The notes beneath the pieces were generated by a model that made no database searches, was not told the origin of the DNA, and saw only the letters and a program-made list of their open reading frames with translations. A program made the position numbers and the translations under genes. Positions 4,733 to 56,570 of a DNA stretch of 64,000 nt are shown here, piece by piece. Source of the stretch: Eledone cirrhosa (lineage: Eukaryota); contig OZ024742.1 of the NCBI GenBank assembly GCA_964016885.1, positions 79,236,001 through 79,300,000 on the forward strand. The letters run 5' to 3'. Position 1 is the stretch's first letter; every line of letters starts with the position of its first letter.

Positions 4733-4877
4733 CATTGATCTGTAAAGATCATTCTTGCTAGTATATTATGAAACAATTTATACATCTCATATGTATTTTG
4801 TCTGAAAAAGCATATTCTGATTTATGTTAAACGTAAATTTTTGCATCCTCGAAATATATATAATGAAATAAATAGTG

Positions 4878-5630
4878 AAGAAATCCTTGGCCTGGCAGTG
4901 CTACCGAGGAGCTTTGCTAGTTCGGGATAAACTTTGCAGGCATGGAGGTGCCGTCAGCCGGGCATGTCCGAGATGCGCGCAGAGCGACGAAACCGTCCTG
5001 CACGCACTCGTCCAGTGTCTGAGCATTGCTGACTTGTGGGTTTATGTCGAACACCTTCTGTCACGTGTGGGACGGATCCAGCTATCAGCTGAGTCCATCG
5101 TGAGGATTGCCCCGCTCTCTTCCTTTAGTCGGGAAGAGCAGGCAGTTTTTATCTGTCTGGTGGCCATGGCGAAAGAGATGGTATGGTGGACACGTTTGAA
5201 AGGGCTGAAGACGAACACTTACCTCTTCGGTGATGCCCTGATTAACTTTTTCAAATTTCATTTGGAAAGGAAAATCAGGGTACAGAGGGAAGTGCTCTTT
5301 TCCCAGCATTTTGTTGAAAGATGGGTGAGAGAAGCAAGTATGGCCCGAGTGAATGGGCCTACTCTGAGTATGTGCCTGTAAATTAAAGGTAGAAAACTGG
5401 GAGAGGGCACTTGCCCTGGTGGTCAGGGTCACTGTGGCCTTTTAATGGGCTTTCTCCACAGATGTCCCTCGGAAGTCTCCCCCCTATTGGGGAATTTTTG
5501 ATTGTTATTTTTTTTATTGCATCCTCTGTTTTTGTTTACACGCAGAAATGCCCATTTGTACTGTCCTGTATTGTCCTGTACTGTCTTTAATGTCTACTTT
5601 ATGTAAACCCTTGTGGTTAATAAAGAAAGC
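4878..5630 (+). mobile_element. L1/Tx1-type LINE 3' fragment (post-RT zinc-binding domain plus 3' UTR)
   Basis: KSLAWQCYRGAL..CPRCAQSDETVLHALVQC (CCHC) aligns with the C-terminus of 11841-13076; ends in AATAAAGAAA. Confidence 0.85.
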
Positions 5631-11250: not shown

Positions 11251-11525
11251 TATATTAATAAAAGGAATTCCAACTTTGTCTGATTTACTCGTTTTATTTA
11301 CAACAGTTGAACATTGCAAACTTGACTGTCACCACACATTATGAACCTGAAGATTGCGAAAGCATGAAAGTACTTGTTCAATTAACACATAACATTTAAT
11401 ATTCTACCATACTATTTCATTCTAATACCATTATAAATTTTAAAGGATAAAACGAGTAAATCAGACAAAGTTGGAATTCCTTTTATTAATATAATCTTCT
11501 ATACACAATCATACACACCCGTGTA

Positions 11526-11527
<2 letters not shown>
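11251..11527 (+). mobile_element. PLE-type terminal repeat with inverted 5' copy, enclosing a hammerhead
   Basis: TATTAATAAAAGGAATTCCAACTTTGTCTGATTTACTCGTTTTAT (11253-11297) is inverted at 11447-11491; same family at 35195-35367 and 42980-43040. Confidence 0.7.
11342..11380 (+). ncRNA. Minimal type I hammerhead ribozyme
   Basis: TGAAC CTGAAGA T TGC GAAA GCA T GAAA GTAC TT GTTCA; palindromic AAGTACTT helix III. Confidence 0.8.
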
Positions 11528-11587
<60 letters not shown>

Positions 11588-11589
<2 letters not shown>

Positions 11590-13340
11590 CGACAAGGCTG
11601 CCCTCTCTCCTCCCTTCTGTATGTAATGACTCTAGAGCCACTGCTGCGGAAGTTGGAGTTGTTGCAGGGCATCCCGTTGGAACCGGGATTGCGGAAAGCG
11701 GTGTCGGCCTACGCCGACGACGTAACAATAATGGTGTCGACGGCCTCGGAAATCGGAGCGATCGGCACCTTACTGGAGGAGTACGAAAGGTTTACAGGGG
11801 CTAAGCTGAACCGGGACAAGTCGATCGTCTGCAACTCGGCATGTGGAGGGGCAGATCGATGCCCTCCGATGGCGTCGTCCGGCGCTGGACGGAGGGCCCG
11901 GTGAAGTTGCTCGGGGTCTGGTTCAGACCAGACCTCCAGGTGGAGAAGAACTGGGGTGAGGTAACGAACAGGGTGTTTGCACTGAGCCAGAAGTGGGCCG
12001 AGTGCAAACTGTCCCTGAAGGGTCGGGCGGAGGTGGCGAACACTTATATAGCGTCCGTCATCTACTACCGCCTAACCGTTGTGCCTTGCCCAAGGGAAAC
12101 GCTCGCCAAAATGGAGCGCGCACTCTTCCAATTCCTTTGGAAGAAGCGAGCTCCTATGGTGAGGAGATCCATCTGCTGTCAACACCCTTCGAAAGGAGGA
12201 CTGGGGATGCCGTGGCTAATGATACGTAAACACGCATTAAGGCTACGGCACCTCCAGGTATTCCTCACCGGTCAACCGGTGTGGGCCCCGTTTGTGAGGC
12301 GAGCCTTTCCCAGACTCGTCTCACTCACCGAGCTGCAATCCTGGGTCAAGCAAAGACTGAGAAAACTGGGCGCCTGGCACACTAAGTGTGCCGAGGCGCT
12401 CACGGCTCTCTGGCAGGCGGACCCGGCGATCAGTGGAGAATCCACCTCGTCATTCTATAGAGGGCTGGTGGTTAGCAGGTGCGACGACGCCCTCAGAGAA
12501 GCCCTAGGCATGGAGGAAGACGAACTGAACAACCTGTTCGGTAGGACATTCAGCCCAGGACCCATGAATAACTTCCAGAGGTCCCTGGCCTGGCAGTGCT
12601 ACCGAGGGGCTCTGCCCGTTAGAGAAAGGCTCTACACTAGGGACCCCTCGAAAAAGATCTGTCCCAGATGCGTGTGCGACGAGGAAACCGTTGCACACGC
12701 ATTGGTACACCGCTCGGGCATTGCCGATCTGTGGGGCTATGTCGAACAACTGCTGTCAAGGGTGGGACCGATCCGGTTGACCACCGAGTCTATTGTAACG
12801 ATCAAGCCGCCTCCCCTCTTCAAAAACGAAGGAGAGGCGGTGTTTCTGTGCGTAATAGCCATGGCGAAAGAGGTTGTATGGTGGACGCCTCTGAAAGGAC
12901 TGAGGCCAGACACCTTTCTCTCTGGCCAACAACTGGTCCGTTTCTTCCGATATCATTTCGGAAGAAGGATCAGGATGGAGAGAGAGGTGCTGCACCCCAG
13001 CCGTTTTTATGAAAGATGGGTGAAAGTAGCGAGAATGGCCCGTGTGAATGGGCCTTCACTCTACATCAGACTATAGGTGAGGAAGATGAAAGATCAAGGG
13101 AGCACCCCCTCTCTGTGCTCCTGAGGAGAAGGGTTGCACACTTTTTTTCGGGGGTGTGTGCGACACCCCAAGGCGCCTCCTCCCTATTGAGGATTTTGTT
13201 ATAAATTTATTTTGTTATATTTTATTTTATTTTTATATTTTATTATTGCCTCCTCCTTATTGAGGACGCCTTGTTATGTAAACTCCCCTCCATTGTACTT
13301 GTCCCACTTTTTGATGCCCTGGTGGCAAATAAAAAGAAAA
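11588..13340 (+). mobile_element. L1/Tx1-type LINE, 5'-truncated (RT C-half plus zinc-binding domain), frameshift near 11830
   Basis: IRQGCPLS and SAYADD RT motifs, then 411 aa ORF with KLLGVWF, GGLGMP, CPRCVCDEETVAH; A-rich tail; flanked by (CTAT)n. Confidence 0.92.
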
Positions 13341-26506: not shown

Positions 26507-28160
26507 AATATTCTGTATAATAAACAGCATTGACAAACCGTCTCTTTTTTGTGCCGGTATATCGAGAGAAATCTTGTGTCCCCGGTCCCCGGGCAGCAGT
26601 TTTTCTCCTATAAACTGGGAGGAAGATATTTCGCGGGGGAAAAGGGCCAGCAGGTGTCGCTTCTATTTTCTTCCTTCCTTTTAGTTATTCCTCTCCATAT
26701 TTTTCTCTCTCTACTTATTTATAGATATATACAGTTGAATATGAAATTTTGAATTAATAAACAGTTGAATAATATTTCTATCTTCTTCTTCTTCTTCTTC
26801 TTCTTCTTCTTCTTCGTTAGTTTTTTCAGATAATTTGGCTTCCCTTTCATAAGAGGGTAAAATGTAACTTTATAACATAATTGGTTTTTTTTAAACCCGG
26901 ATAATCGGTTACTGAGTAGAACAGGTTATTGTGAAAGACGTTCCTGCAGTGACTAACACGTATGTTTTCGGACATAACGAATAGAGGACTAATGTGTAAT
27001 TCCTGTTTTAAGAAGGTAAAGTAGCACTTTATAATAGAATTGATTTTGTTGTTTAAACTCAGATCATTTCTGACTGAGCAGATATTACATCAACGATGTC
27101 CCAACTGAAATCGTCCAATTGTTTCTTTTTTTTATACATAATGTACTAGGAATACATTATTTAATGTATACTTCCTGTTTTAAGGCGGTAAACTATGACA
27201 AAGGGAAATGTGCCTGCTATTTTTAGAAGGGTTAACGGATATGTAGTACCGAAGACTAAAATCTTAAGATTTATCTCTTGGCGTATCATCGATAAAATTG
27301 TTGTGGTTATCATTTTTTAAACTCAGATGAGATTTGCTACAGCAAAAAATGTGCTCGAAGATGTTCAACCTGTGAATATGGCGTCATTTATTTTCGGACG
27401 TAATCTCTCTATGACTACATTATATAATGTGTAGTTGCGGCAGCATGGGCGAATGGTTAAGAAGTTCGCTTCAGAATCATTTGCTCCATGATTCGATCCC
27501 ACTGCGTGGGGTCTTGGACTGGTGTCATTTACCATAAACTCGAGTCGACCCATGTTTGAGAGTGAATTTGGTTAGACGGATACTGTTTGGAAGCCCGTCT
27601 GGTTGATGGACTATACATGTAAATTAAAGGGCCATCCATGCCGCACACTGTGTTACGACTGTTCCTTTGATCGAACTGTAACACTCATCATCAAAACCAC
27701 CGGAGATCCATTCCATATATTGTGTCCTATGTTAAGATAAAATTTAAAACAATAGGGATTTTGTTGCTATTTCTAGCAACTTGAGCCATCGAAAATTTAG
27801 AGTCACCCAAAATCCCCGAGGTTGGGTTATACAATCTTAGAATAGGAACAACATATTTTACATGAGATATACGAACATCAATGGGTGAATAACATTTAGT
27901 CAGAGAGAACATCAGTGTAATAGAATAGCTCTCTATATAAATAGAACTATATTTGAAGAATTAGTTCTGATCTTAATCACTCTCTTCCAATTATATGATT
28001 GAAATAGGTGATATAAAACAATATATTTAAATGAAAATCGAACGATCAGATTTCAAGCAGACAAGTTAAAATTAGTCACACACATACAAACACGCACGTA
28101 CACATAATCCACGCACATATACACATGCATATATATATGCATATATATCTATATATATAT

Positions 28161-28727
28161 ATGGAAAAAATGAAACGAAATTTCATTTCTCACTCTTAGT
28201 ACGGCTGTTACGTAAATCCATACGTACATATATATATGTGTGCATGTATGTATATATATATACATACTCCTGTACGTCTGTATACATATATATATGTACG
28301 TGTACATACTTATATTTAAGTAACAGCCGTACTAAGAGTGAGAAATGAAATTTCGTTTCATTTTTTCCATTTATCGTTTTCGGTGCGCCCGGCCGATTAA
28401 CTCACTCGATATGCAAATTAGGCTGCTCAGCCGTTAATATGCATAAGGAAAGTATATACTTTCAGACGTTCAATCATCTGGCAGGAAGGTATACGGTGCT
28501 GACGATAGCTAATAAGCTTGAAACTAGTACATCGTTCCTTTGTCAGTGTTGAACAAATAGGCAACGATGGTTGCTAGACACTGTACGGCTTAATCCGGGA
28601 TGTTTGTTTACAAACAAACCGAGCATTATAATAAATGTTCGGTAAATCCATACGTACACATGTATATGTGTGCATGTATGTATATATATACATACTACTG
28701 TACGTCTGTATACATATATGTATGTAC

Positions 28728-28736
<9 letters not shown>
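28161..28736 (+). mobile_element. ORF-less hammerhead-bearing unit with ~95 bp terminal direct repeats and a 51 bp inverted leader (retrozyme-like or PLE pLTR)
   Basis: 28212-28308 repeats at 28642-28736 (period 430 bp); 28161-28211 is the reverse complement of 28320-28370. Confidence 0.75.
28494..28534 (+). ncRNA. Minimal type I hammerhead ribozyme
   Basis: CGGTG CTGACGA T AGCT AATA AGCT T GAAA CTAG TA CATCG; helix I extended by AGGAA/TTCCT. Confidence 0.85.
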
Positions 28737-28790
<54 letters not shown>

Positions 28791-28890
28791 TATACACACA
28801 TATATATATACATAACATATATATGCATATATAAGAGAAATATATGTATATGCATATATATGTATATATATGTGTGTGTGTATATATATA

Positions 28891-28939
<49 letters not shown>

Positions 28940-28945
<6 letters not shown>

Positions 28946-29430
28946 TATAAAGCTGACGGCCGTAAGTAGGTAACAAACTCTCCGCCAAACGGCTAAGATC
29001 TGAGAACCATCAATGGCCATGGATGTTCCACTTACCGTTTGGCTTGTCAGCTGCGTGGTATGTTACACGATGACAGCAATTGGCACCTCACCCTGCAAGA
29101 AGCAGCAACTGCTAAAGTCCCTTCTCAGCTGCGAGAACTTTTTACTATTATGCTGCACAACTGCGATCTCGCCGACCCCCTCCCACTGTGGAACAACCAC
29201 CGTGAAAGTCTAGCTAAGGACATCCTCGACCGCACACGCAGACACAATCCAAACGTAACATACGATGTCGTTTTCAATGAGGCGCTCATTTGTCTTGAAA
29301 ACAGTGTCTTGGAGATTGGTGGTAGGCCTCTATGTCACTACAGCTTACCTGCTCCTGACAGGAGTGTCCAGAGGTCAACTTCTACAGAGCTTCTCCGCGA
29401 GACGAGTTACGAAATCAGTGATTCTCTCAT
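28940..29430 (+). mobile_element. Helitron fragment (Rep-helicase linker region)
   Basis: [22 protein letters not shown]....PSQLRELF..ML..C....PL.LW is typical of Helitron Rep/Hel proteins. Confidence 0.8.
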
Positions 29431-29660
29431 GGTCAATTGTATGTAGGATGCTCTAGGGCAAAGGTTATCAACCCATTTTGGCTGCTATAATAAGAAAATC
29501 TAAGAAACGACAAGAAAACATTCACTAGATGGTAATATCGCCCTTCATTTAAATACATCAAATTTATTCTCTTTAATTCATCCCAACAAACATATAATAA
29601 TCTCTTTCAGAAGTTGGGAAAACGCAGAGATGTACGTTTTTTCATTATTAACACTCTCCA

Positions 29661-43632: not shown

Positions 43633-44253
43633 TATATATTGGTAAACGGAATAGAAAATGCTGACAAATTGTTCACAGTTGATAAATGGTTTAATTAGGA
43701 ATAAAAGAGTATTAGTGATTGTATGGGTTAGTATTCAGTTGTGGTTTTAAGTTTTTAAGTTTTTACCGGTTGCGCATTTCTAAATGCTTTTCAAAAATAA
43801 TTTTGAGATAGAGTGTCCGTGCTGTTTGCTCTGATCTGATTAGTTTTGGGAATTCTACCTGTTTTTATGTTAAAAAAGTGGCTCCAGCGTTATTTTTGTG
43901 TTGCAAAAATTCTTGTGGTCAAAACAATTTTGATTGGTCGGTAGAGGTCATGTGAATGTAAAGAGTTGATTTTGCGCCAAGACTGTTTTTATGTTAAAAA
44001 AGTGGCTCCAGCAAAAATTCTTGGTCAAAACAATTTTGATTGGTCGGTAGAGGTCATGTGAATAAAACATTGGTTTTGCGCCAAGATTGAGAAATGACTC
44101 TTTCACAACAAATATATGTGTGTGTGTGTGTATGTGTGTGTGTGTGTGTGTAGTAGTAGTAAGGTGTTCGATGCTGCGACAATGGCCAGCAGCGATGTGT
44201 GTCAAATGGCTATTAAGATAAGTGTGTGTGTGCGTGTGTGTGTGTGTGCGCGC

Positions 44254-44314
<61 letters not shown>

Positions 44315-44395
44315 GCAGAGTGATTCGTGGTGGTAGGGATGGTCAGTAAGAATGTGTCTGAAAGCAATGGGGGGTATTTTAGCATGTCAAAAGAT

Positions 44396-44478
<83 letters not shown>

Positions 44479-45615
44479 GCAGAGTAATTTGTGGTGGCAG
44501 GGATGGTCAGTAAGAATGTGTCTGAAAGCAATGGGGGGTATTTTAGCATGTCAAAAGATATTTTTCAGCTTCCTCGGCATCCTCATTAAGATCCATAACA
44601 AAAAAATAGAAACAGACATATACTACAAGCCCACAGACTCCAAGCAATATCTCCCCTTCAACTCTTGCCACCCTAGACACGTTAACATTAATATTCCCTA
44701 CAACTTAGCCAAGAGAATCTGTACTATAGTCTCCAATAAAAACATCTGCTACTTACGGCTACAAGAACTAAAGGACACACTCATAGGCAGGGACTACCCT
44801 GCATCACTAATTGACAATGGAATCCAACGTGCCCTAAAACTCAGTACCCAGGACCTTAGACACCCTAAAGTAAATCAACCAAAACTAAAAGCTCTTCCAT
44901 ACATCTCCACACACAACCCCCTCAACAATGAGGCCTTTGACACCATCCTCCAGAACATCCCTGTATTGAAAAAGGACCATAGAATGAACCAAATTCTACG
45001 AACACACGATATCATAAAGAGCAAAAGACAATCCAAGTCAATGAAAAACATCTTAACACATGCCAAAGTACTGCCAACCACAACAACGAAACCCACAGTA
45101 AAAAAATGCGATAGACCCAACTGTGGCATTTGCATCAACCTAATAGAGGGTTCAGAATTCTATTTCAAAGATGGACAACGTTTTATTGTAGAACACAATT
45201 TCACATGTGCATCGGAAAATCTAATATATGTATTAACTTGTTCAGGTTGTCGAGAAAAATACATAGGCCAGACCAAAAACAGCCTCCGCCAACGCATGAC
45301 TGTCCATAGATCCCAAATTAAAATACGGGAATACAGAAAAATACCACTGAGTGAACACATTGATACCTGTGCCGCCCAAAATCATCCCAACTTCAGAATC
45401 TTTCCCCTCTACAAATTTAAAGATAATGCCACCCACACTCAGCGCACCAGCAAGGAATCTTACTTCATTAACAAATACGGACCCCGTCTAAACACTTCTC
45501 CCTAAGACGAAACCACAACATACACACGTCAACATACATACCTACATCAGCACACATCTCTACCCACATATAAACACAATGACACACGTAATATATGTGC
45601 ATATATATGTATGTA

Positions 45616-45660
<45 letters not shown>

Positions 45661-45812
45661 AATATATGTATGTGTATATATATATATAGTGAATATCATT
45701 TCACACCTTTTATTGTTAAGATTTTTGATGTTCTATTAAGAGAACCGATTTTACTGAAAAAATCGAATAATGTACACCATTTTACCAGGGGGAAAAAATA
45801 CTGGTCCACCCA

Positions 45813-45894
<82 letters not shown>

Positions 45895-46305
45895 CACAAA
45901 CACATACACACGCGTACATCAACATACAAAGAGACTTATATACACACACACACACGCACTTCACCGTATAAGACAAAAGCTGAAAAATATCTTTTGACAT
46001 GCTAAAATACCCCCCATTGCTTTCAGACACATTCTTACTGACCATCCCTGCCACCACAAATTACTCTGCTACACACACACACACACACACGCACACACAC
46101 ACACACACACACACTTATCTTTTGACATGCTAAAATACCCCCCATTGCTTTCAGACACATTCTTACTGACCATCCCTACCACCACGAATCACTCTGCTAT
46201 ACACACACACACACTTATCTTAATAGCCATTTGACACACATCGCTGCTGGCCATTGTCGCAGCATCGAACACCTTACTACTACTACTACTACACACACAC
46301 ACACA

Positions 46306-46348
<43 letters not shown>

Positions 46349-46856
46349 TTGTTGTGAAAGAGTCATTTCTCAATCTTGGCGCAAAACCAATTTTTTATTC
46401 ACATGACCTCTACCGACCAATCAAAATTGTTTTGACCAAGAATTTTTGCTGGAGCCACTTTTTTAACATAAAAACAGTCTTGGCGCAAAATCAACTCTTT
46501 ACATCCACATGACCTCTACCGACCAATCAAAATTGTTTTGACCACAAGAATTTTTGCAACACAAAAATAACGCTGGAGCCACTTTTTTAACATAAAAACA
46601 GGTAGAATTCCCAAAACTAATCAGATCAGAGCAAACAGCACGGACACTCTATCTCAAAATTATTTTTGAAAAGCATTTAGAAATGCCCAACCGGTAAAAA
46701 CTTAAAAACTTAAAACCACAACTGAATACTAACCCATACAATCACCAATACTCTTTTATTCCTAATTAAACCATTTTTCAACTGTGAACAATTTGTCAGC
46801 ATTTTCTATTCCGTTTACCAATATATAATAACTTGTGTGTTACAGCTCTATTCTTT

Positions 46857-53072: not shown

Positions 53073-53488
53073 AAAATATATCTAACATTCAATATACGTA
53101 ACAGAATGATCGGACATTGAAGTATTGAGAATATAGAATTAATGTAAAGGATGATATCTCAAGCATAGAGATCTCATAAAACGGCTTATAATATAGTGTG
53201 AATACCCGTAAAAGATGGGAAAAAAAGTTGCCATTGGTCGCTGTGAGAAATTGAATTGCATATCTCTCAGTATCTGGGAGATTTGAGGTATCAATTCCTC
53301 ATAGCAGCCGTTGGTAACTTATATTCCCGTATTTCACGGGTATTCACCGTATTCACCCTACTTTATAAGCTATTTTATAACATCTCTGTGTATGAACACA
53401 TCATCTTTTACAATATATCTAATATATTTCTTACTGACTATGTTTGCGTCCCTCAATGGCAGTCTTATCATATTCGTTGTGTGCGCAA

Positions 53489-55235
53489 GTAGTGGTGGTG
53501 GTAGTGGGAGTGGCCTGCTGGTTGTGAGTGTGTGTGTGTGGAGGTGGTAGCGGGAGTGACCTGCTGGTTGTGAGTGTGTGTGTGTGGAGGTGGTAGCGGG
53601 AGTGACCTGCTGGTTGTGAGTGTGTGTGTGTGTGGAGGTGGTAGTGGGAGTGGCCTGCTGGTTGTGAGTGTGTGTGTGTGGAGGTGGTAGCGGGAGTGGC
53701 CTGCTGGTTGTGAGTATGTGTGTGTGGAGGTGGTAGCGGGAGTGACCTGCTGGTTGTGAGTGTGTGTGTGTGGAGGTGGTAGCGGGAGTGGCCTGCTGGT
53801 TGTGAGTATGTGTGTGTGGAGGTGGTAGCGGGAGTGACCTGCTGGTTGTGAGTGTGTGTGTGTGGAGGTGGTAGCGGGAGTGACCTGCTGGTTGTGAGTG
53901 TGTGTGTGTGGAGGTGGTAGCGGGAGTGACCTGCTGGTTGTGAGTATGTGTGGAGGTGGTAGCGGGAGTGACCTGCTGGTTGTGAGTATGTGTGTGTGGA
54001 GGTGGTAGCGGGAGTGACCTGCTGGTTGTGAGTATGTGTGGAGGTGGTAGCGGGAGTGACCTGCTGGTTGTGAGTGTGTGTGTGTGGAGGTGGTAGCGGG
54101 AGTGACCTGCTGGTTGTGAGTGTGTGTGTGTGGAGGTGGTAGCGGGAGTGACCTGCTGGTTGTGAGTATGTTTGGAGGTGGTAGCGGGAGTGACCTGCTG
54201 GTTGTGAGTGTGTGTGTGTGGAGGTGGTAGCGGGAGTGACCTGCTGGTTGTGAGTATGTGTGTGTGGAGGTGGTAGCGGGAGTGACCTGCTGGTTGTGAG
54301 TGTGTGTGTGTGGAGGTGGTAGCGGGGGTGACCTGCTGGTTGTGAGTATGTGTGTGTGGAGGTGGTAGCGGGAGTGGCCTGCTGGTTGTGAGTGTGTGTG
54401 TGTGGAGGTGGTAGCGGGAGTGACCTGCTGGTTGTGAGTGTGTGTGTGTGGAGGTGGTAGCGGGAGTGGCCTGCTGGTTGTGAGTGTGTGTGTGTGGAGG
54501 TGGTAGCGGGAGTGACCTGCTGGTTGTGAGTGTGTGTGTGTGGAGGTGGTAGCGGGAGTGACCTGCTGGTTGTGAGTGTGTGTGTGTGGAGGTGGTAGCG
54601 GGAGTGGCCTGCTGGTTGTGAGTGTGTGTGTGTGGAGGTGGTAGCGGGAGTGACCTGCTGGTTGTGAGTATGTGTGTGTGGAGGTGGTAGCGGGAGTGGC
54701 CTGCTGGTTGTGAGTGTGTGTGTGTGGAGGTGGTAGCGGGAGTGGCCTGCTGGTTGTGAGTGTGTGTGTGTGGAGGTGGTAGCGGGAGTGACCTGCTGGT
54801 TGTGAGTGTGTGTGTGTGAGGGTGGTAGTGGGAGTGACTTTCTGGTTGTGAGTGTGTGTGTGTGTGGGTGGTAGTGGGAGTGGCTTTCTGGTTGTGAGTG
54901 TGTGTGTGTAGGTGGTAGCGGGAGTGGCCTGCTGGTTGTGAATGTGTGTGGAGGTGGTAGTGGGAGTGATCTGGTTGTGAGTGTGTGTGTGTGGGGGTGG
55001 TAGTGGGAGTGGCTTTCTGGTTGTGAGTGTGTGTGTGTAGGTGGTAGAGGGAGTGACCTTCCGGTTGTGAATGTGTGTGGAGGTGGTAGTGGGAGTGATC
55101 TGGTTGTGAGTGTGTGTGTGTGGGGGTGGTAGTGGGAGTGACCTTCTGGTTGTGAGTGTGTGTGGAGGTGGTAGTGGGAGTGATCTTGTTGTGAGTGTGT
55201 GTGTGTGGAGGTGGTAGTGGGAGTGATCTTGTTGT
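53489..55235. repeat. G-rich minisatellite, ~37-43 bp unit, roughly 40+ copies
   Basis: Unit GGAGGTGGTAGCGGGAGTG(A/G)CCTGCTGGTTGTGAG(TG)n. Confidence 0.95.
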
Positions 55236-55537
55236 GTGAGTCTGCTTCTGAGATGTTTTCACACGTAAACACACACACACCAGACACACACACCACACAC
55301 ACACACACCAGACACACACACCACGCACACACACACCAGACACACCACACACCAGACACACACACCAGACACACACACCAGACACACCACACACCAGACA
55401 CACACACCAGACACACACACCAGACACCCACACCAGACACACCACACTCGTTCACACATAAACACTTTCACAATCTATACATTTATCAGCTCTTCAAATA
55501 TTTCTATTTTCTGTATATTTCTCAAGCCTGTATGCAA

Positions 55538-55594
<57 letters not shown>

Positions 55595-55681
55595 AAACTC
55601 ACAGACGTACACACACACACAGCCATACAGACACACACACACAGAGACAGACAGACACACACACAGAGACACACATACACA

Positions 55682-55731
<50 letters not shown>

Positions 55732-55887
55732 CTCACAGACACATACACATACATACACACACACATATACACACACACACAGACAGACACACACACACAT
55801 ACTCAGACACAGACACACACACACAAACACACATATGTGTATATATATATATAGAGAGAGAGAGATAGATAGATATAAACATATACG

Positions 55888-55931
<44 letters not shown>

Positions 55932-55938
55932 CACTGTC

Positions 55939-55993
<55 letters not shown>

Positions 55994-56570
55994 CGCACAT
56001 GCACACACATATATATATATATATACGCATGCACACACGGGGGGGGGGGGGAGGGGGGAGAGTAAGGGAGTTCAAAATGAATAAAAACAAAAAAACAAAA
56101 AACAAAAAGAAATAAATATCAACTGAGACATTCGTCTTTCATATTGAAGATTTCAGATATATATAGGGTTATAGAAACTATTATTGTTGTTGTTAATGTT
56201 TCTTAATTTATGTTTTTGTTTTTAGTCCCAAATGCTATTTAACCGATGGCCTTTTCGCTTGTTGCTTATCTTTTGACAAAATCTAAATCTGTTGAAAAAA
56301 ATATCCTTACTAAATCTGTTTTTACTGACCTTTTAAAGAAACCGAATGACCTAAGATGGCGGGGAGATAACTGTCATATCATAATGGCGAATGTATTGGT
56401 GCGTAGTTTTGAAAGTTTTTGTGTTTTGTGGAGAAGGTGTTGTTTCTTTATCGTTGTTATAGTTATTTCTTTTGTTAATAGTGGTCGTGGCCGTAGGCAA
56501 AATGCAGATAAACATTTTTCAATTTATATATATATCATGTAACTATGCGTTACATACGTACACACACCAG

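What the first reader, a model, noticed from the sequence alone, without database searches (positions are those of the whole stretch)
28161..28736. Candidate retrozyme 2: 430 bp unit with hammerhead, ~95 bp direct repeat and inverted leader
Seen: 28212-28308 repeats at 28642-28736, a minimal hammerhead lies at 28494-28534, and the element starts with a 51 bp inverted copy of its own internal sequence. It is unrelated in sequence to candidate 1 but has the same architecture. Inference: an independent non-autonomous ribozyme element mobilised by PLE machinery, since inverted 5' pieces are a PLE hallmark.
Basis: partly seen in the sequence, partly recalled or inferred. Interest (0 to 1): 0.75.

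Follow-up and report, generated by a model that had tools for sequence, protein, structure and literature searches.

The report
Penelope-type hammerhead repeat, one dead copy
This stretch is one insertion of a 428-base repeat found at least 25,000 times in this animal genome; its insertion pattern matches Penelope-like retrotransposons, which likely copy it, and its conserved hammerhead-like motif is predicted but not shown to cut its own RNA, making it a new member of a known kind.

Summary
They are a 430-bp-spaced direct repeat, a perfect 51-nt inverted repeat, and a hammerhead-like motif at 28493-28535.

They are not features of a single element. They are the footprint of one insertion of a high-copy repeat family:
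- The unit is about 428 bp: A (54 nt), B (267 nt) and a conserved TA/TG-rich segment, LC (about 107 nt).
- The motif's 31-nt core occurs 24,749 times in the genome and 0 times in the reversed control.

Across 29 loci and six arrays the family shows two fixed 3' ends, usually followed by (TA)n. Its 5' ends are variable, and it forms partial or full tandems. Inverted copies are joined only head-to-head (11 versus 0). This is the published insertion signature of Penelope-like elements (PLEs). Two PLE families with intact ORFs fill this genome, but neither shares sequence with the unit.

The hammerhead block is the most conserved part of the unit. Differences between subfamilies fall at N7, in loop 2, or in compensated stem pairs. 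It still scores below Rfam's threshold (18 versus 52 bits), has a U·U pair at the base of helix II, and no RNA data were available.

Verdict: likely a metazoan non-LTR retrozyme-type element. The window copy has one ribozyme motif and is probably inert.

The parts
28129..28162 (.). (AT)n microsatellite on the 5' side; likely part of the target microsatellite
   Evidence: Tandem Repeats Finder row 28129-28162, period 2; sequence
28161..28211 (-). Inverted, extremely 5'-truncated copy. It is the reverse complement of segment A (the 3' tail module) alone, and its 3' end faces the outer (TA)n.
   Evidence: Perfect 51-nt inverted repeat with 28320-28370. Inverted 5' pieces occur in 18 of 29 loci.
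28212..28319 (+). LC segment, first copy. This is the conserved TA/TG-rich part of the unit, and the forward copy starts here, 5'-truncated at the B/LC border.
   Evidence: Aligns with 28642-28736. LC is conserved between subfamilies, its 3' half most of all.
28320..28374 (+). Segment A (about 54 nt, with an 8-bp hairpin). In other loci it also stands alone after the last LC, as the 3' tail.
   Evidence: A second A follows the last unit in 16 of 29 loci
28375..28641 (+). Segment B, the unique body of the unit, which holds the hammerhead-like domain
   Evidence: Full-length matches at 95-100% identity at the 40 scored places
28478..28546 (+). Hammerhead-like domain. It has an extended helix I (outer stem 28478-83/28541-46, GG bulge, middle stem 28486-89/28537-40, internal loop, inner stem 28493-98/28530-35), the catalytic core, helix II and a minimal helix III. 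The predicted cut is between 28529 and 28530.
   Evidence: HH9 model alignment, 18.1 bits. Pair counts: 92% of cells paired and two pairs with changes on both sides. Least variable block of the unit.
28642..28736 (+). LC segment, second copy. It is the 3' end of this insertion, the end type without the A tail, and it runs into (TA)n.
   Evidence: 13 of 29 loci have no A tail after the last unit; most of these end at or in LC, a few are interrupted or truncated.
28737..28949 (.). (TA)n microsatellite on the 3' side
   Evidence: Tandem Repeats Finder row 28709-28949, period 2, 121 copies. (TA)4 or longer follows 15 of 16 tail-type ends and 9 of 13 LC-type ends.

Best explanation
The 576-bp stretch is one insertion of a ~428-bp non-coding repeat family whose hammerhead core occurs at least 24,749 times in this genome. 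The family's insertion anatomy matches Penelope-like elements, so it is likely a non-autonomous element copied by a Penelope-like reverse transcriptase, and its conserved hammerhead-like motif is predicted, not shown, to self-cleave.

Shown:
- The unit is A + B + LC.
- Copies have one of two fixed 3' ends, after A or at the end of LC, and most are followed by (TA)n.
- The 5' ends are truncated at many different points.
- Copies often exceed one unit or form arrays of up to 7-8 units.
- Inverted copies abut only 5'-to-5'.
- The hammerhead block is the least variable part of the unit.

Inferred:
- Tandem master arrays are transcribed on the + strand.
- The type-I hammerhead, with its 1-bp helix III and palindromic loop, cuts each unit, probably pairing as a dimer with a neighbouring copy. 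This gives unit-length RNAs that may be ligated into circles.
- A PLE RT/endonuclease nicks (TA)n DNA and starts reverse transcription at an internal site of the multimeric or circular RNA (the end of A or the end of LC). It then copies a variable length, sometimes more than one unit. An inverted 5'-truncated copy arises when the intermediate is resolved.

The window copy is an inverted tail plus 1.25 forward units with a single hammerhead motif. It cannot release a unit-length RNA on its own and is probably inert.
For: Copy number and dispersal:
- 561 first-look candidates. The 40 scored places are full-length or nearly so, 95-100% identical, on 7 contigs.
- The 31-nt core pattern matches 12,750 times forward and 11,999 times reverse, against 0 and 0 for the reversed control.
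- 29 of 44 sampled copies fit that exact pattern, so the true number is higher.

Anatomy in 29 independent loci:
- 18 have an inverted 5' piece, and 16 have the A tail after the last unit.
- (TA)n follows 15 of 16 tail-type ends and 9 of 13 LC-type ends.
- 5' ends fall at many points.

Polarity: the first 100 pattern hits form 59 clusters. 14 are tandem, 11 are head-to-head and 0 are tail-to-tail.

Arrays: subfamilies 84-91% identical to the window unit all end in the A tail and join head-to-head.

Match to published PLE features:
- partial tandems, an inverted 5'-truncated copy, a 30-40 bp tail, and (TA)n bias in the Naiad and Hydra clades (PMC8557442, passages read)
- internal RT initiation explains the tail (PMC11167929, abstract and part 1 of the main text)

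PLE enzymes are on hand:
- The window's GIY-YIG ORF gives 34,268 candidates. All 118 scored are 97-100% identical, many within an open 784-aa frame.
- A second family gives 13,308 candidates with ORFs up to 905 aa.

Hammerhead motif:
- All core bases are present, in type-I order.
- Among six subfamily representatives, 5 of 43 motif columns vary against 90 of 278 elsewhere in A+B (Fisher one-sided p = 0.003). Every least-variable 43-nt window overlaps the motif.
- Four of the five variable sites are N7, loop 2, and the pair 28496/28532, which reads G.U, U.G or A-U. The fifth, 28534, breaks a helix I pair in one subfamily and is listed under evidence against.
- In the extended stem, 28486/28540 changes A-U to U.G, 28487 changes A to G (still paired), and 28492 changes U to A, creating a pair.
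- Covariation score is 0.078 against 0.039 in shuffles (0 of 500 reach it); slid controls reach at most 0.030.
- The same variants are common among the contigs of run X1.
- G.U pairs fit only the + strand, the same polarity as the fixed 3' end.
- A U.U pair at the base of helix II has a precedent in an active axolotl retrozyme hammerhead (PMC7229834, passage read).
Against: Rfam:
- No hammerhead family reaches gathering anywhere in the window.
- No hammerhead match at E<=10 in 27500-29500.
- The best score is 18.1 bits for HH9 against a cut-off of 52, and 14.9 bits in a diverged copy.
- The same genome holds another repeat with a hammerhead above the RF00163 cut-off (18 of 74 scored candidates). 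Canonical motifs are therefore detectable here, and this one is atypical.

Motif details:
- The 10.1-11.1 pair is U.U rather than the highly conserved G-C (PMC4209133, passage read).
- One subfamily (L078) carries an uncompensated change in helix I at 28534.

Folding:
- RNAalifold recovers the outer and middle stems and part of helix II. It replaces the inner helix I with a pairing between core bases and loop 3.
- The monomer's lowest-energy fold is -12.0 kcal/mol, against -7.0 for the hammerhead fold.

Covariation rests on two pairs, each probably a single inherited event.

Partner: neither PLE family shows significant similarity to the unit. The best local scores, 27 and 23, lie inside the shuffled range, whose maxima are 27-32. 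The partner is therefore unassigned, and derivation from a pLTR is not shown.

The conserved block could serve another role, such as a promoter or an RT-binding site.
Confidence: 0.6

Rival explanations
1. The family is a PLE-mobilised non-autonomous element, but the hammerhead-like block is not a working ribozyme. It would be conserved because it serves as an internal promoter, a binding site for the RT, or a stable hairpin. No circular RNA would be involved.
For: - The motif scores below all Rfam gathering thresholds.
- It has a U.U pair at 10.1-11.1.
- The active fold is not the lowest-energy fold.
- The conserved block runs past the motif to about 28558.
- No RNA run is on record. This is listed only as a gap in the data, not as evidence.
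Against: - All core bases are kept across subfamilies that differ by 9-16% elsewhere.
- Four of the five variable sites sit where a hammerhead tolerates change: N7, loop 2 and one compensated helix I pair.
- The loop of helix III stays palindromic in nearly all copies.
- A U.U pair at this position exists in an active retrozyme hammerhead (PMC7229834).
Confidence: 0.27
2. The family is a SINE-like element copied by a LINE (non-LTR) reverse transcriptase. The 5' inversions would come from twin priming, and the (TA)n would be a tail added during reverse transcription.
For: - LINE-type RT fragments lie in the window: RVT_1 and zf-RVT at 11437-13076 and 4872-5381.
- Fixed 3' ends and variable 5' ends fit any target-primed element.
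- Several 5' flanks are unique sequence while the 3' flank is (TA)n.
Against: - Copies longer than one unit, arrays of up to 7-8 units, two alternative 3' ends about 54 nt apart, and very frequent abutting inverted copies (18 of 29 loci) are PLE traits, not LINE/SINE traits (PMC8557442).
- No tRNA, 5S or 7SL head was found at E<=10.
Confidence: 0.08
3. It is not a retroelement at all. It would be a satellite spread by recombination, a foldback or MITE-type DNA transposon, a Helitron passenger, or an assembly artefact.
For: - The window copy alone looks like a hairpin: 51-nt perfect inverted arms around a TA-rich loop.
- Rfam's miRNA models score it as a long hairpin, below threshold.
- Tandem arrays exist.
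Against: - The inverted arms are absent from 11 of 29 loci. Where inverted pieces exist, their lengths and breakpoints differ, so they are not terminal inverted repeats.
- Copies are dispersed on many contigs with unique flanks.
- Head-to-head versus tail-to-tail junctions are 11 versus 0.
- The order of segments is identical at every locus, so it is not an artefact.
Confidence: 0.03

Closest known systems
Metazoan non-LTR retrozymes: tandem repeats with type-I hammerheads expressed as small circular RNAs (PMC7229834; bioRxiv 10.64898/2026.07.22.740005)
   Same: - Non-coding unit of a few hundred bp (here 420-502 bp) with low GC (37%)
- One type-I hammerhead-like motif per unit
- Monomers, dimers and longer arrays
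- Tens of thousands of copies
- Coexistence with autonomous PLEs in the same genome
- Minimal helix III with a palindromic loop, which suggests action as a dimer
- A U.U pair at the base of helix II, as in the axolotl HHR_Amex2
   Different: - The motif fails the Rfam thresholds, and neither cleavage nor circular RNA has been shown.
- Most sampled insertions hold a single motif: 38 of 59 clusters.
- The unit carries a conserved internal TA/TG-rich segment and inserts in (TA)n.
- No similarity to a PLE pLTR was found, whereas Xenopus retrozymes are reported to resemble pLTRs.
Penelope-like elements (Penelope/Poseidon, Neptune, Hydra, Naiad) and their pseudo-LTR insertion structures (PMC8557442; PMC11167929)
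   Same: - Partial tandems
- An inverted 5'-truncated copy abutting the 5' end
- An extra tail segment at one end
- (TA)n or AT-rich target sites
- A hammerhead motif in the non-coding part
   Different: - No ORF: only 1 of 35 loci has RT-like sequence nearby, and that is a separate insertion.
- The tail here is about 54 nt rather than 30-40 nt.
- No sequence is shared with the two PLE families examined.
Hammerhead-bearing SINE-like and satellite repeats of schistosomes (Sm-alpha), newts (satellite 2) and cave crickets. These names are recalled; only the newt satellite is mentioned in the passages I read in PMC7229834.
   Same: A dispersed and tandem repeat of about 330-500 bp, with a type-I hammerhead that has a weak helix III
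   Different: No sequence comparison was made here. Those ribozymes are experimentally active and are represented in Rfam's Hammerhead_1 family.

Membership tests
Hammerhead ribozyme, type I | Conserved core: C3-U4-G5-A6-N7-G8-A9, G12-A13-A14, the A15.1-U16.1 pair, and H17 not G | tested here: met
   CUGACGA at 28499-28505, GAA at 28520-22, A28523 paired with U28528, A28529. These columns are invariant or nearly so in 42 distinct copies.
Hammerhead ribozyme, type I | Three helices in type-I order, with helix I open and helices II and III closed by loops | tested here: met
   Helix I is 6 bp plus an extended stem. Helix II is 4 bp with a 4-nt loop. Helix III is 1 bp with the palindromic loop CUAG. 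92% of cells are paired over 38 copies. This helix III form is described as typical of metazoan type-I motifs (PMC4209133).
Hammerhead ribozyme, type I | G10.1-C11.1 pair at the base of helix II | tested here: not met
   It is U.U (28506/28519) in the window and in nearly all copies. An active axolotl motif with a U.U pair here is reported (PMC7229834).
Hammerhead ribozyme, type I | Score at or above the gathering threshold of an Rfam hammerhead model | tested here: not met
   No hit at gathering in the window. The best score is HH9 at 18.1 bits against 52, and 14.9 bits in a diverged copy.
Hammerhead ribozyme, type I | Site-specific self-cleavage | not testable with these tools
   No RNA run is on record among the runs offered. 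This needs in vitro transcription.
Metazoan non-LTR retrozyme | Short, low-GC tandem repeats, each unit carrying a type-I hammerhead | tested here: inconclusive
   Arrays of 2 to 8 units with periods of 420-538 bp exist, and GC is 37%. However, 38 of 59 clusters hold one motif, and ribozyme activity is unproven.
Metazoan non-LTR retrozyme | Expression as unit-length linear and circular RNA | not testable with these tools
   No RNA holder is listed. The contigs laid are of unknown kind and cannot show RNA ends.
Metazoan non-LTR retrozyme | Coexistence with autonomous PLEs | tested here: met
   Two PLE families have long open ORFs: 784 aa with 34,268 candidates, and up to 905 aa with 13,308 candidates.
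PLE-type insertion signature | Partial tandems, an abutting inverted 5'-truncated copy, a tail at one end, and a microsatellite or AT-rich target | tested here: met
   18 of 29 loci have an inverted 5' piece and 16 of 29 have the A tail. Head-to-head versus tail-to-tail is 11 versus 0. (TA)n follows 24 of 29 ends.
PLE-derived non-autonomous element (pLTR derivative) | Sequence similarity to the pLTR or terminus of an autonomous PLE in the same genome | tested here: not met
   No significant similarity to the two PLE families examined. Other PLE families were not examined.
MITE / foldback DNA transposon | Terminal inverted repeats present in all copies | tested here: not met
   Inverted pieces are absent in 11 of 29 loci and differ in length and breakpoint in the rest.
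SINE with a Pol III gene-derived head | A tRNA-, 5S- or 7SL-related 5' region | tested here: not met
   No such Rfam match at E<=10 in 27500-29500.

The most novel reading that the evidence does not exclude
A retrozyme family with at least 25,000 copies whose hammerhead escapes the standard models: it has a U.U pair at the base of helix II and a 1-bp helix III. It would work as a dimer to release ~430-nt circular RNAs. A Penelope-type RT would copy these from two internal start sites specifically into (TA)n. Each copy brings its own conserved TA/TG-rich segment, which expands within arrays, so the element would both target microsatellites and seed them across a 3-Gb genome.
Probability: 0.3. 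Interest if true: 0.55.

Novelty: new member of a known kind. Interest (0 to 1): 0.4.

Why it matters
The core motif count implies about 10.6 Mb, or 0.35% of the genome, in this one family.

Standard Rfam annotation would miss the family entirely. That suggests hammerhead-bearing retroelements are under-counted wherever the motif departs from the canonical G10.1-C11.1 pair.

Three features make it a convenient natural substrate for testing how PLE reverse transcriptases choose their internal start sites:
- two sharply defined 3' ends
- strict head-to-head polarity
- very young PLE families with intact ORFs in the same genome

The conserved TA/TG-rich segment, which varies in length between subfamilies, also makes it a candidate vehicle for spreading microsatellites.

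For the window itself the result is ordinary: a single, probably inert insertion.

Tried and rejected
Autonomous partner, sought by sequence:
- BLAST of the unit against 30 loci of the 784-aa PLE family gave only two weak hits: 54 nt at 81% at the edge of L059 and 19 nt in L042.
- Against a full copy, L061, the best hit was 29 nt at 79% identity, E = 0.38, near the ORF start.
- Against the 900-aa family, only low-complexity matches appeared.
- Smith-Waterman scores against both families fell inside the shuffled range.
- The 424-bp spacer between tandem ORFs of the second family matches the unit length only by coincidence.

Other hammerheads:
- No Rfam hammerhead at E<=1 in one 3.9-kb PLE locus, L050.
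- The genome's canonical hammerhead repeat (RF00163 above its cut-off) is unrelated to this unit apart from low-complexity matches.

RNA evidence:
- No RNA holder was listed.
- The four runs laid are contigs of unknown kind, so they say nothing about expression, RNA ends or circles.
- A second read-laying request, on four more runs for cross-species variation, was sent seven times and never answered because the machine was busy.

Other checks:
- Earlier-findings look-ups returned nothing.
- Target-site duplications could not be read because most insertions lie in (TA)n.
- The neighbouring ORF at 28997-29446 has no Pfam match.
- The protein Atlas shows only that the 784-aa ORF is PLE-like (HTH_animal, DUF8422, GIY-YIG). 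It gives no host taxon, and the organism was not identified.

Full report
**1. The observation**

- Positions 28212-28308 and 28642-28736 are a direct repeat. 91 positions are identical over 97/95 nt with one 2-nt gap, and the spacing is 430.
- Positions 28161-28211 are a perfect 51-nt reverse complement of 28320-28370.
- A hammerhead-like motif lies on the + strand at 28493-28535. It has a 6-bp helix I, the core CUGACGA, and a 4-bp helix II with a 4-nt loop closed by a U.U pair. After GAAA comes a 1-bp helix III with the palindromic loop CUAG, then U16.1 and A17. The predicted cut is between 28529 and 28530.

I wrote a descriptor after seeing the candidate. It finds only this site in the 64-kb window on both strands. 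In 200 dinucleotide-preserving shuffles it found 0.035 sites per shuffle, with 7 of 200 shuffles giving a hit. A stricter form gave 0 of 200.

**2. A large repeat family**

The non-repetitive 321 bp (28321-28641) gave 561 first-look candidates in the window's own 3.0-Gb genome. The 40 scored places are full-length or nearly so, 95-100% identical, and lie on seven contigs.

A 31-nt pattern covering the hammerhead core, with N at N7 and at one loop base, matches 12,750 times forward and 11,999 times reverse. The reversed control matches 0 times. Only 29 of 44 sampled copies fit the exact pattern, so the family is larger than that. At 428 bp per unit this is at least 10.6 Mb, or 0.35% of the genome.

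**3. Anatomy of the family**

I mapped the unit onto 30 loci. L001 is the window itself and L002 and L008 are one array, so 29 loci are independent. The unit is A (54 nt, with a small hairpin), then B (267 nt), then LC (about 107 nt, TA/TG-rich but conserved).
- 3' side: 16 of 29 loci end with an extra A after the last LC. The other 13 have no A tail; most of them end at or in LC, and a few are interrupted or truncated by other sequence.
- (TA)4 or longer follows 15 of 16 tail-type ends and 9 of 13 LC-type ends.
- 5' side: copies break off at many different points.
- 18 of 29 loci have an inverted partial copy abutting the 5' end. In L007 only LC is inverted; I read that by eye.
- The first 100 pattern hits form 59 clusters. 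38 hold one motif and 21 hold two to eight. 14 have same-strand neighbours, at spacings of 420-538 bp with one at 850 bp. 11 have a minus copy followed by a plus copy (5'-to-5'). None has the opposite order.
- Six arrays fetched for inspection belong to subfamilies 84-91% identical to the window unit. They show the same rules: a head-to-head junction on the 5' side and the A tail on the 3' side.

The window copy therefore reads as follows. An inverted copy reduced to the A tail (28161-28211) is joined to a forward copy that starts at the B/LC border. The forward copy runs through LC, A and B to the end of a second LC (28736). The whole sits inside a (TA)n tract. The direct repeat is the partial tandem, and the inverted leader is the inverted 5'-truncated copy. 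Neither is a terminal structure of the element.

**4. What this anatomy means**

Published descriptions of PLEs list the following (PMC8557442, passages read):
- frequent 5' truncation
- partial tandems that form pseudo-LTRs
- an inverted 5'-truncated copy next to the 5' end
- a 30-40 bp tail at one end
- a bias for (TA)n, reported for the Naiad and Hydra clades

Biochemistry on an anole PLE showed that reverse transcription starts at internal sites of the RNA, which explains the tail. It also showed that the enzyme cuts AT-rich DNA on both strands (PMC11167929, abstract and first part of the main text).

The family fits each of these points. A LINE-driven SINE would explain the fixed 3' ends and variable 5' ends. 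It would not explain copies longer than one unit, arrays, or two alternative ends 54 nt apart.

A MITE or foldback reading fails. Inverted pieces are missing in 11 of 29 loci and differ in length elsewhere.

The element is not attached to a coding PLE. Only one of 35 loci (117.5 kb in all) has an RT-like match within 1.5 kb. That match is a separate 5'-truncated insertion, set apart by (TA)n.

**5. PLEs in this genome**
- The window has a GIY-YIG ORF at 44480-45505. It gives 34,268 first-look candidates. All 118 scored are 97-100% identical, many within an open frame of 784 aa.
- A full copy, L061, begins in (TA)n and has inverted pseudo-LTRs.
- A second family, found next to the unit in L016, gives 13,308 candidates with ORFs up to 905 aa and tandem copies of period 3,127 bp.
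- Neither family shares significant sequence with the unit.

Enzymes of the right kind are therefore abundant and young, but the partner is not identified. Descent of the unit from a pseudo-LTR, as reported for Xenopus retrozymes (bioRxiv 10.64898/2026.07.22.740005, abstract and Results part 1), is not shown here.

**6. Is the hammerhead real?**

For:
- All core bases are present in type-I order.
- The form with helix I of 6 bp, helix II of 4 bp and helix III of 1-2 bp with a small palindromic loop is described as typical of metazoan type-I motifs, which act as dimers (PMC4209133, passages read).
- In an alignment of ten units from six arrays plus the window, I compared six subfamily representatives. 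5 of 43 motif columns vary, against 90 of 278 elsewhere in A+B (Fisher one-sided p = 0.003). All the least variable 43-nt windows overlap the motif.
- Four of the five variable sites are N7, one loop-2 base, and the partners 28496 and 28532, which read G.U, U.G or A-U. The fifth is 28534 (see below).
- Helix I continues outward. After an internal loop there is a 4-bp stem, then a GG bulge, then a 6-bp stem. In the most diverged subfamily this extension changes by A-U to U.G, by A-U to G.U, and by U.U to A-U.
- On 38 distinct copies, 92.0% of cells pair and two pairs change on both sides. The covariation score is 0.078, against 0.039 in shuffles (0 of 500 reach it) and at most 0.030 when partners are slid. 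A shorter model on 42 copies gave 0.097 against 0.043. Four rows truncated at junctions were dropped from the longer alignment.
- The same variants are common among the contigs of a run that holds the family at very high depth.
- The G.U pairs fit only the + strand. That agrees with the polarity given by the fixed 3' end.

Against:
- No Rfam hammerhead model reaches its threshold. There is nothing at gathering in the window and nothing at E<=10 in 2 kb. HH9 scores 18.1 bits against 52 when only 91 nt are searched, and 14.9 bits in a diverged copy.
- The genome's other hammerhead repeat does pass RF00163: 18 of 74 scored candidates, 37.8 bits against 34.
- The 10.1-11.1 pair is U.U, where G-C is highly conserved (PMC4209133). 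An active axolotl retrozyme motif with a U.U pair there is on record (PMC7229834).
- One subfamily has an uncompensated change at 28534.
- RNAalifold recovers the outer and middle stems and part of helix II, but pairs core bases with loop 3 instead of forming the inner helix I.
- The hammerhead fold is 5 kcal/mol above the monomer's lowest-energy fold.
- The covariation may reflect only two inherited events.

I put the chance that the motif self-cleaves, at least as a dimer, near 0.6.

**7. Mechanism proposed**

Shown: the family's structure, copy number, polarity, target context and the conservation pattern.

Inferred:
- Arrays are transcribed on the + strand.
- Hammerheads of neighbouring units pair through the palindromic ACUAGU and cut each unit.
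- Unit RNAs may be circularised.
- A PLE RT/endonuclease nicks (TA)n and starts cDNA synthesis at the end of A or at the end of LC on a multimeric or circular template. This yields copies of variable length, some above one unit.
- Resolution of the intermediate gives the inverted 5' copy.

The window copy has one motif and so cannot release a unit RNA by itself.

**8. Comparison and novelty**

The closest known kind is the metazoan non-LTR retrozyme (PMC7229834). It shares unit size, low GC (37%), arrays, copy number, coexistence with PLEs and the style of hammerhead. The defining expression as circular RNA could not be tested, and the Rfam criterion is not met. I therefore file this as a likely new member of that kind, not a proven one.

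Particular to this family are the U.U pair together with a 1-bp helix III, the conserved internal TA/TG-rich segment whose (TA)n part differs in length between subfamilies, and the two sharp 3' ends.

**9. Limits**
- The organism was not identified.
- No RNA data were available.
- A second read-laying request did not complete.
- Supplementary files of the papers were not consulted.
- The Sm-alpha and cave-cricket examples are recalled, not read here.

Noticed in passing
window 43633-46827: A PLE fragment: a 341-aa ORF ending in a GIY-YIG domain at 44480-45505 (+). It is flanked by long inverted repeats, 43633-44571 against 45977-46827, at 94-99% identity. Its family has 34,268 first-look candidates in the genome. 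All 118 scored are 97-100% identical, many within an open 784-aa frame, so it is a very young and probably active PLE.
   Followed up: partly
L016:130-711 (-); L111 and L112: A second PLE family, about 28% identical in the RT to the first. It has 13,308 first-look candidates, ORFs up to 905 aa, and tandem copies of period 3,127 bp. No hammerhead was seen by eye in the 424-bp spacer.
   Followed up: partly
L063-L074 (for example G000:C3:10277077-10277121): A different repeat family carries a canonical type-I hammerhead above the RF00163 cut-off (up to 37.8 bits). It has a G-C pair at the base of helix II and a 2-bp helix III, and it sits in palindromic, head-to-head structures. It is unrelated to the unit studied here.
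   Followed up: partly
window 28997-29446 (+): A 149-aa open frame lies right after the (TA)n tract and has no Pfam match. From memory it resembles the stretch between the Rep and helicase domains of Helitron proteins. This is an untested recollection.
   Followed up: partly
window 4872-5381 and 11437-13076 (+): ORF fragments with RVT_1 and zf-RVT matches. They are likely remains of LINE-type retrotransposons.
   Followed up: no
window 53370-56118: A GC-rich stretch (about 50% GC, with strong GC skew) with long open frames on both strands, up to 693 aa, and no Pfam match. Unexplained.
   Followed up: no
L075, L076, L080 compared with L077, L078 (alignment): Unit length ranges from 422 to 502 bp between subfamilies. 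Much of the difference comes from a (TA)n run inside the LC segment, along with smaller insertions in B. The element therefore carries a microsatellite that varies in length.
   Followed up: partly
L019 upstream of the unit; L020 inside the unit at about q317: Another short repeat, which looks tRNA-like by eye, is inserted next to or into copies of the family. This shows later insertions into these elements.
   Followed up: no
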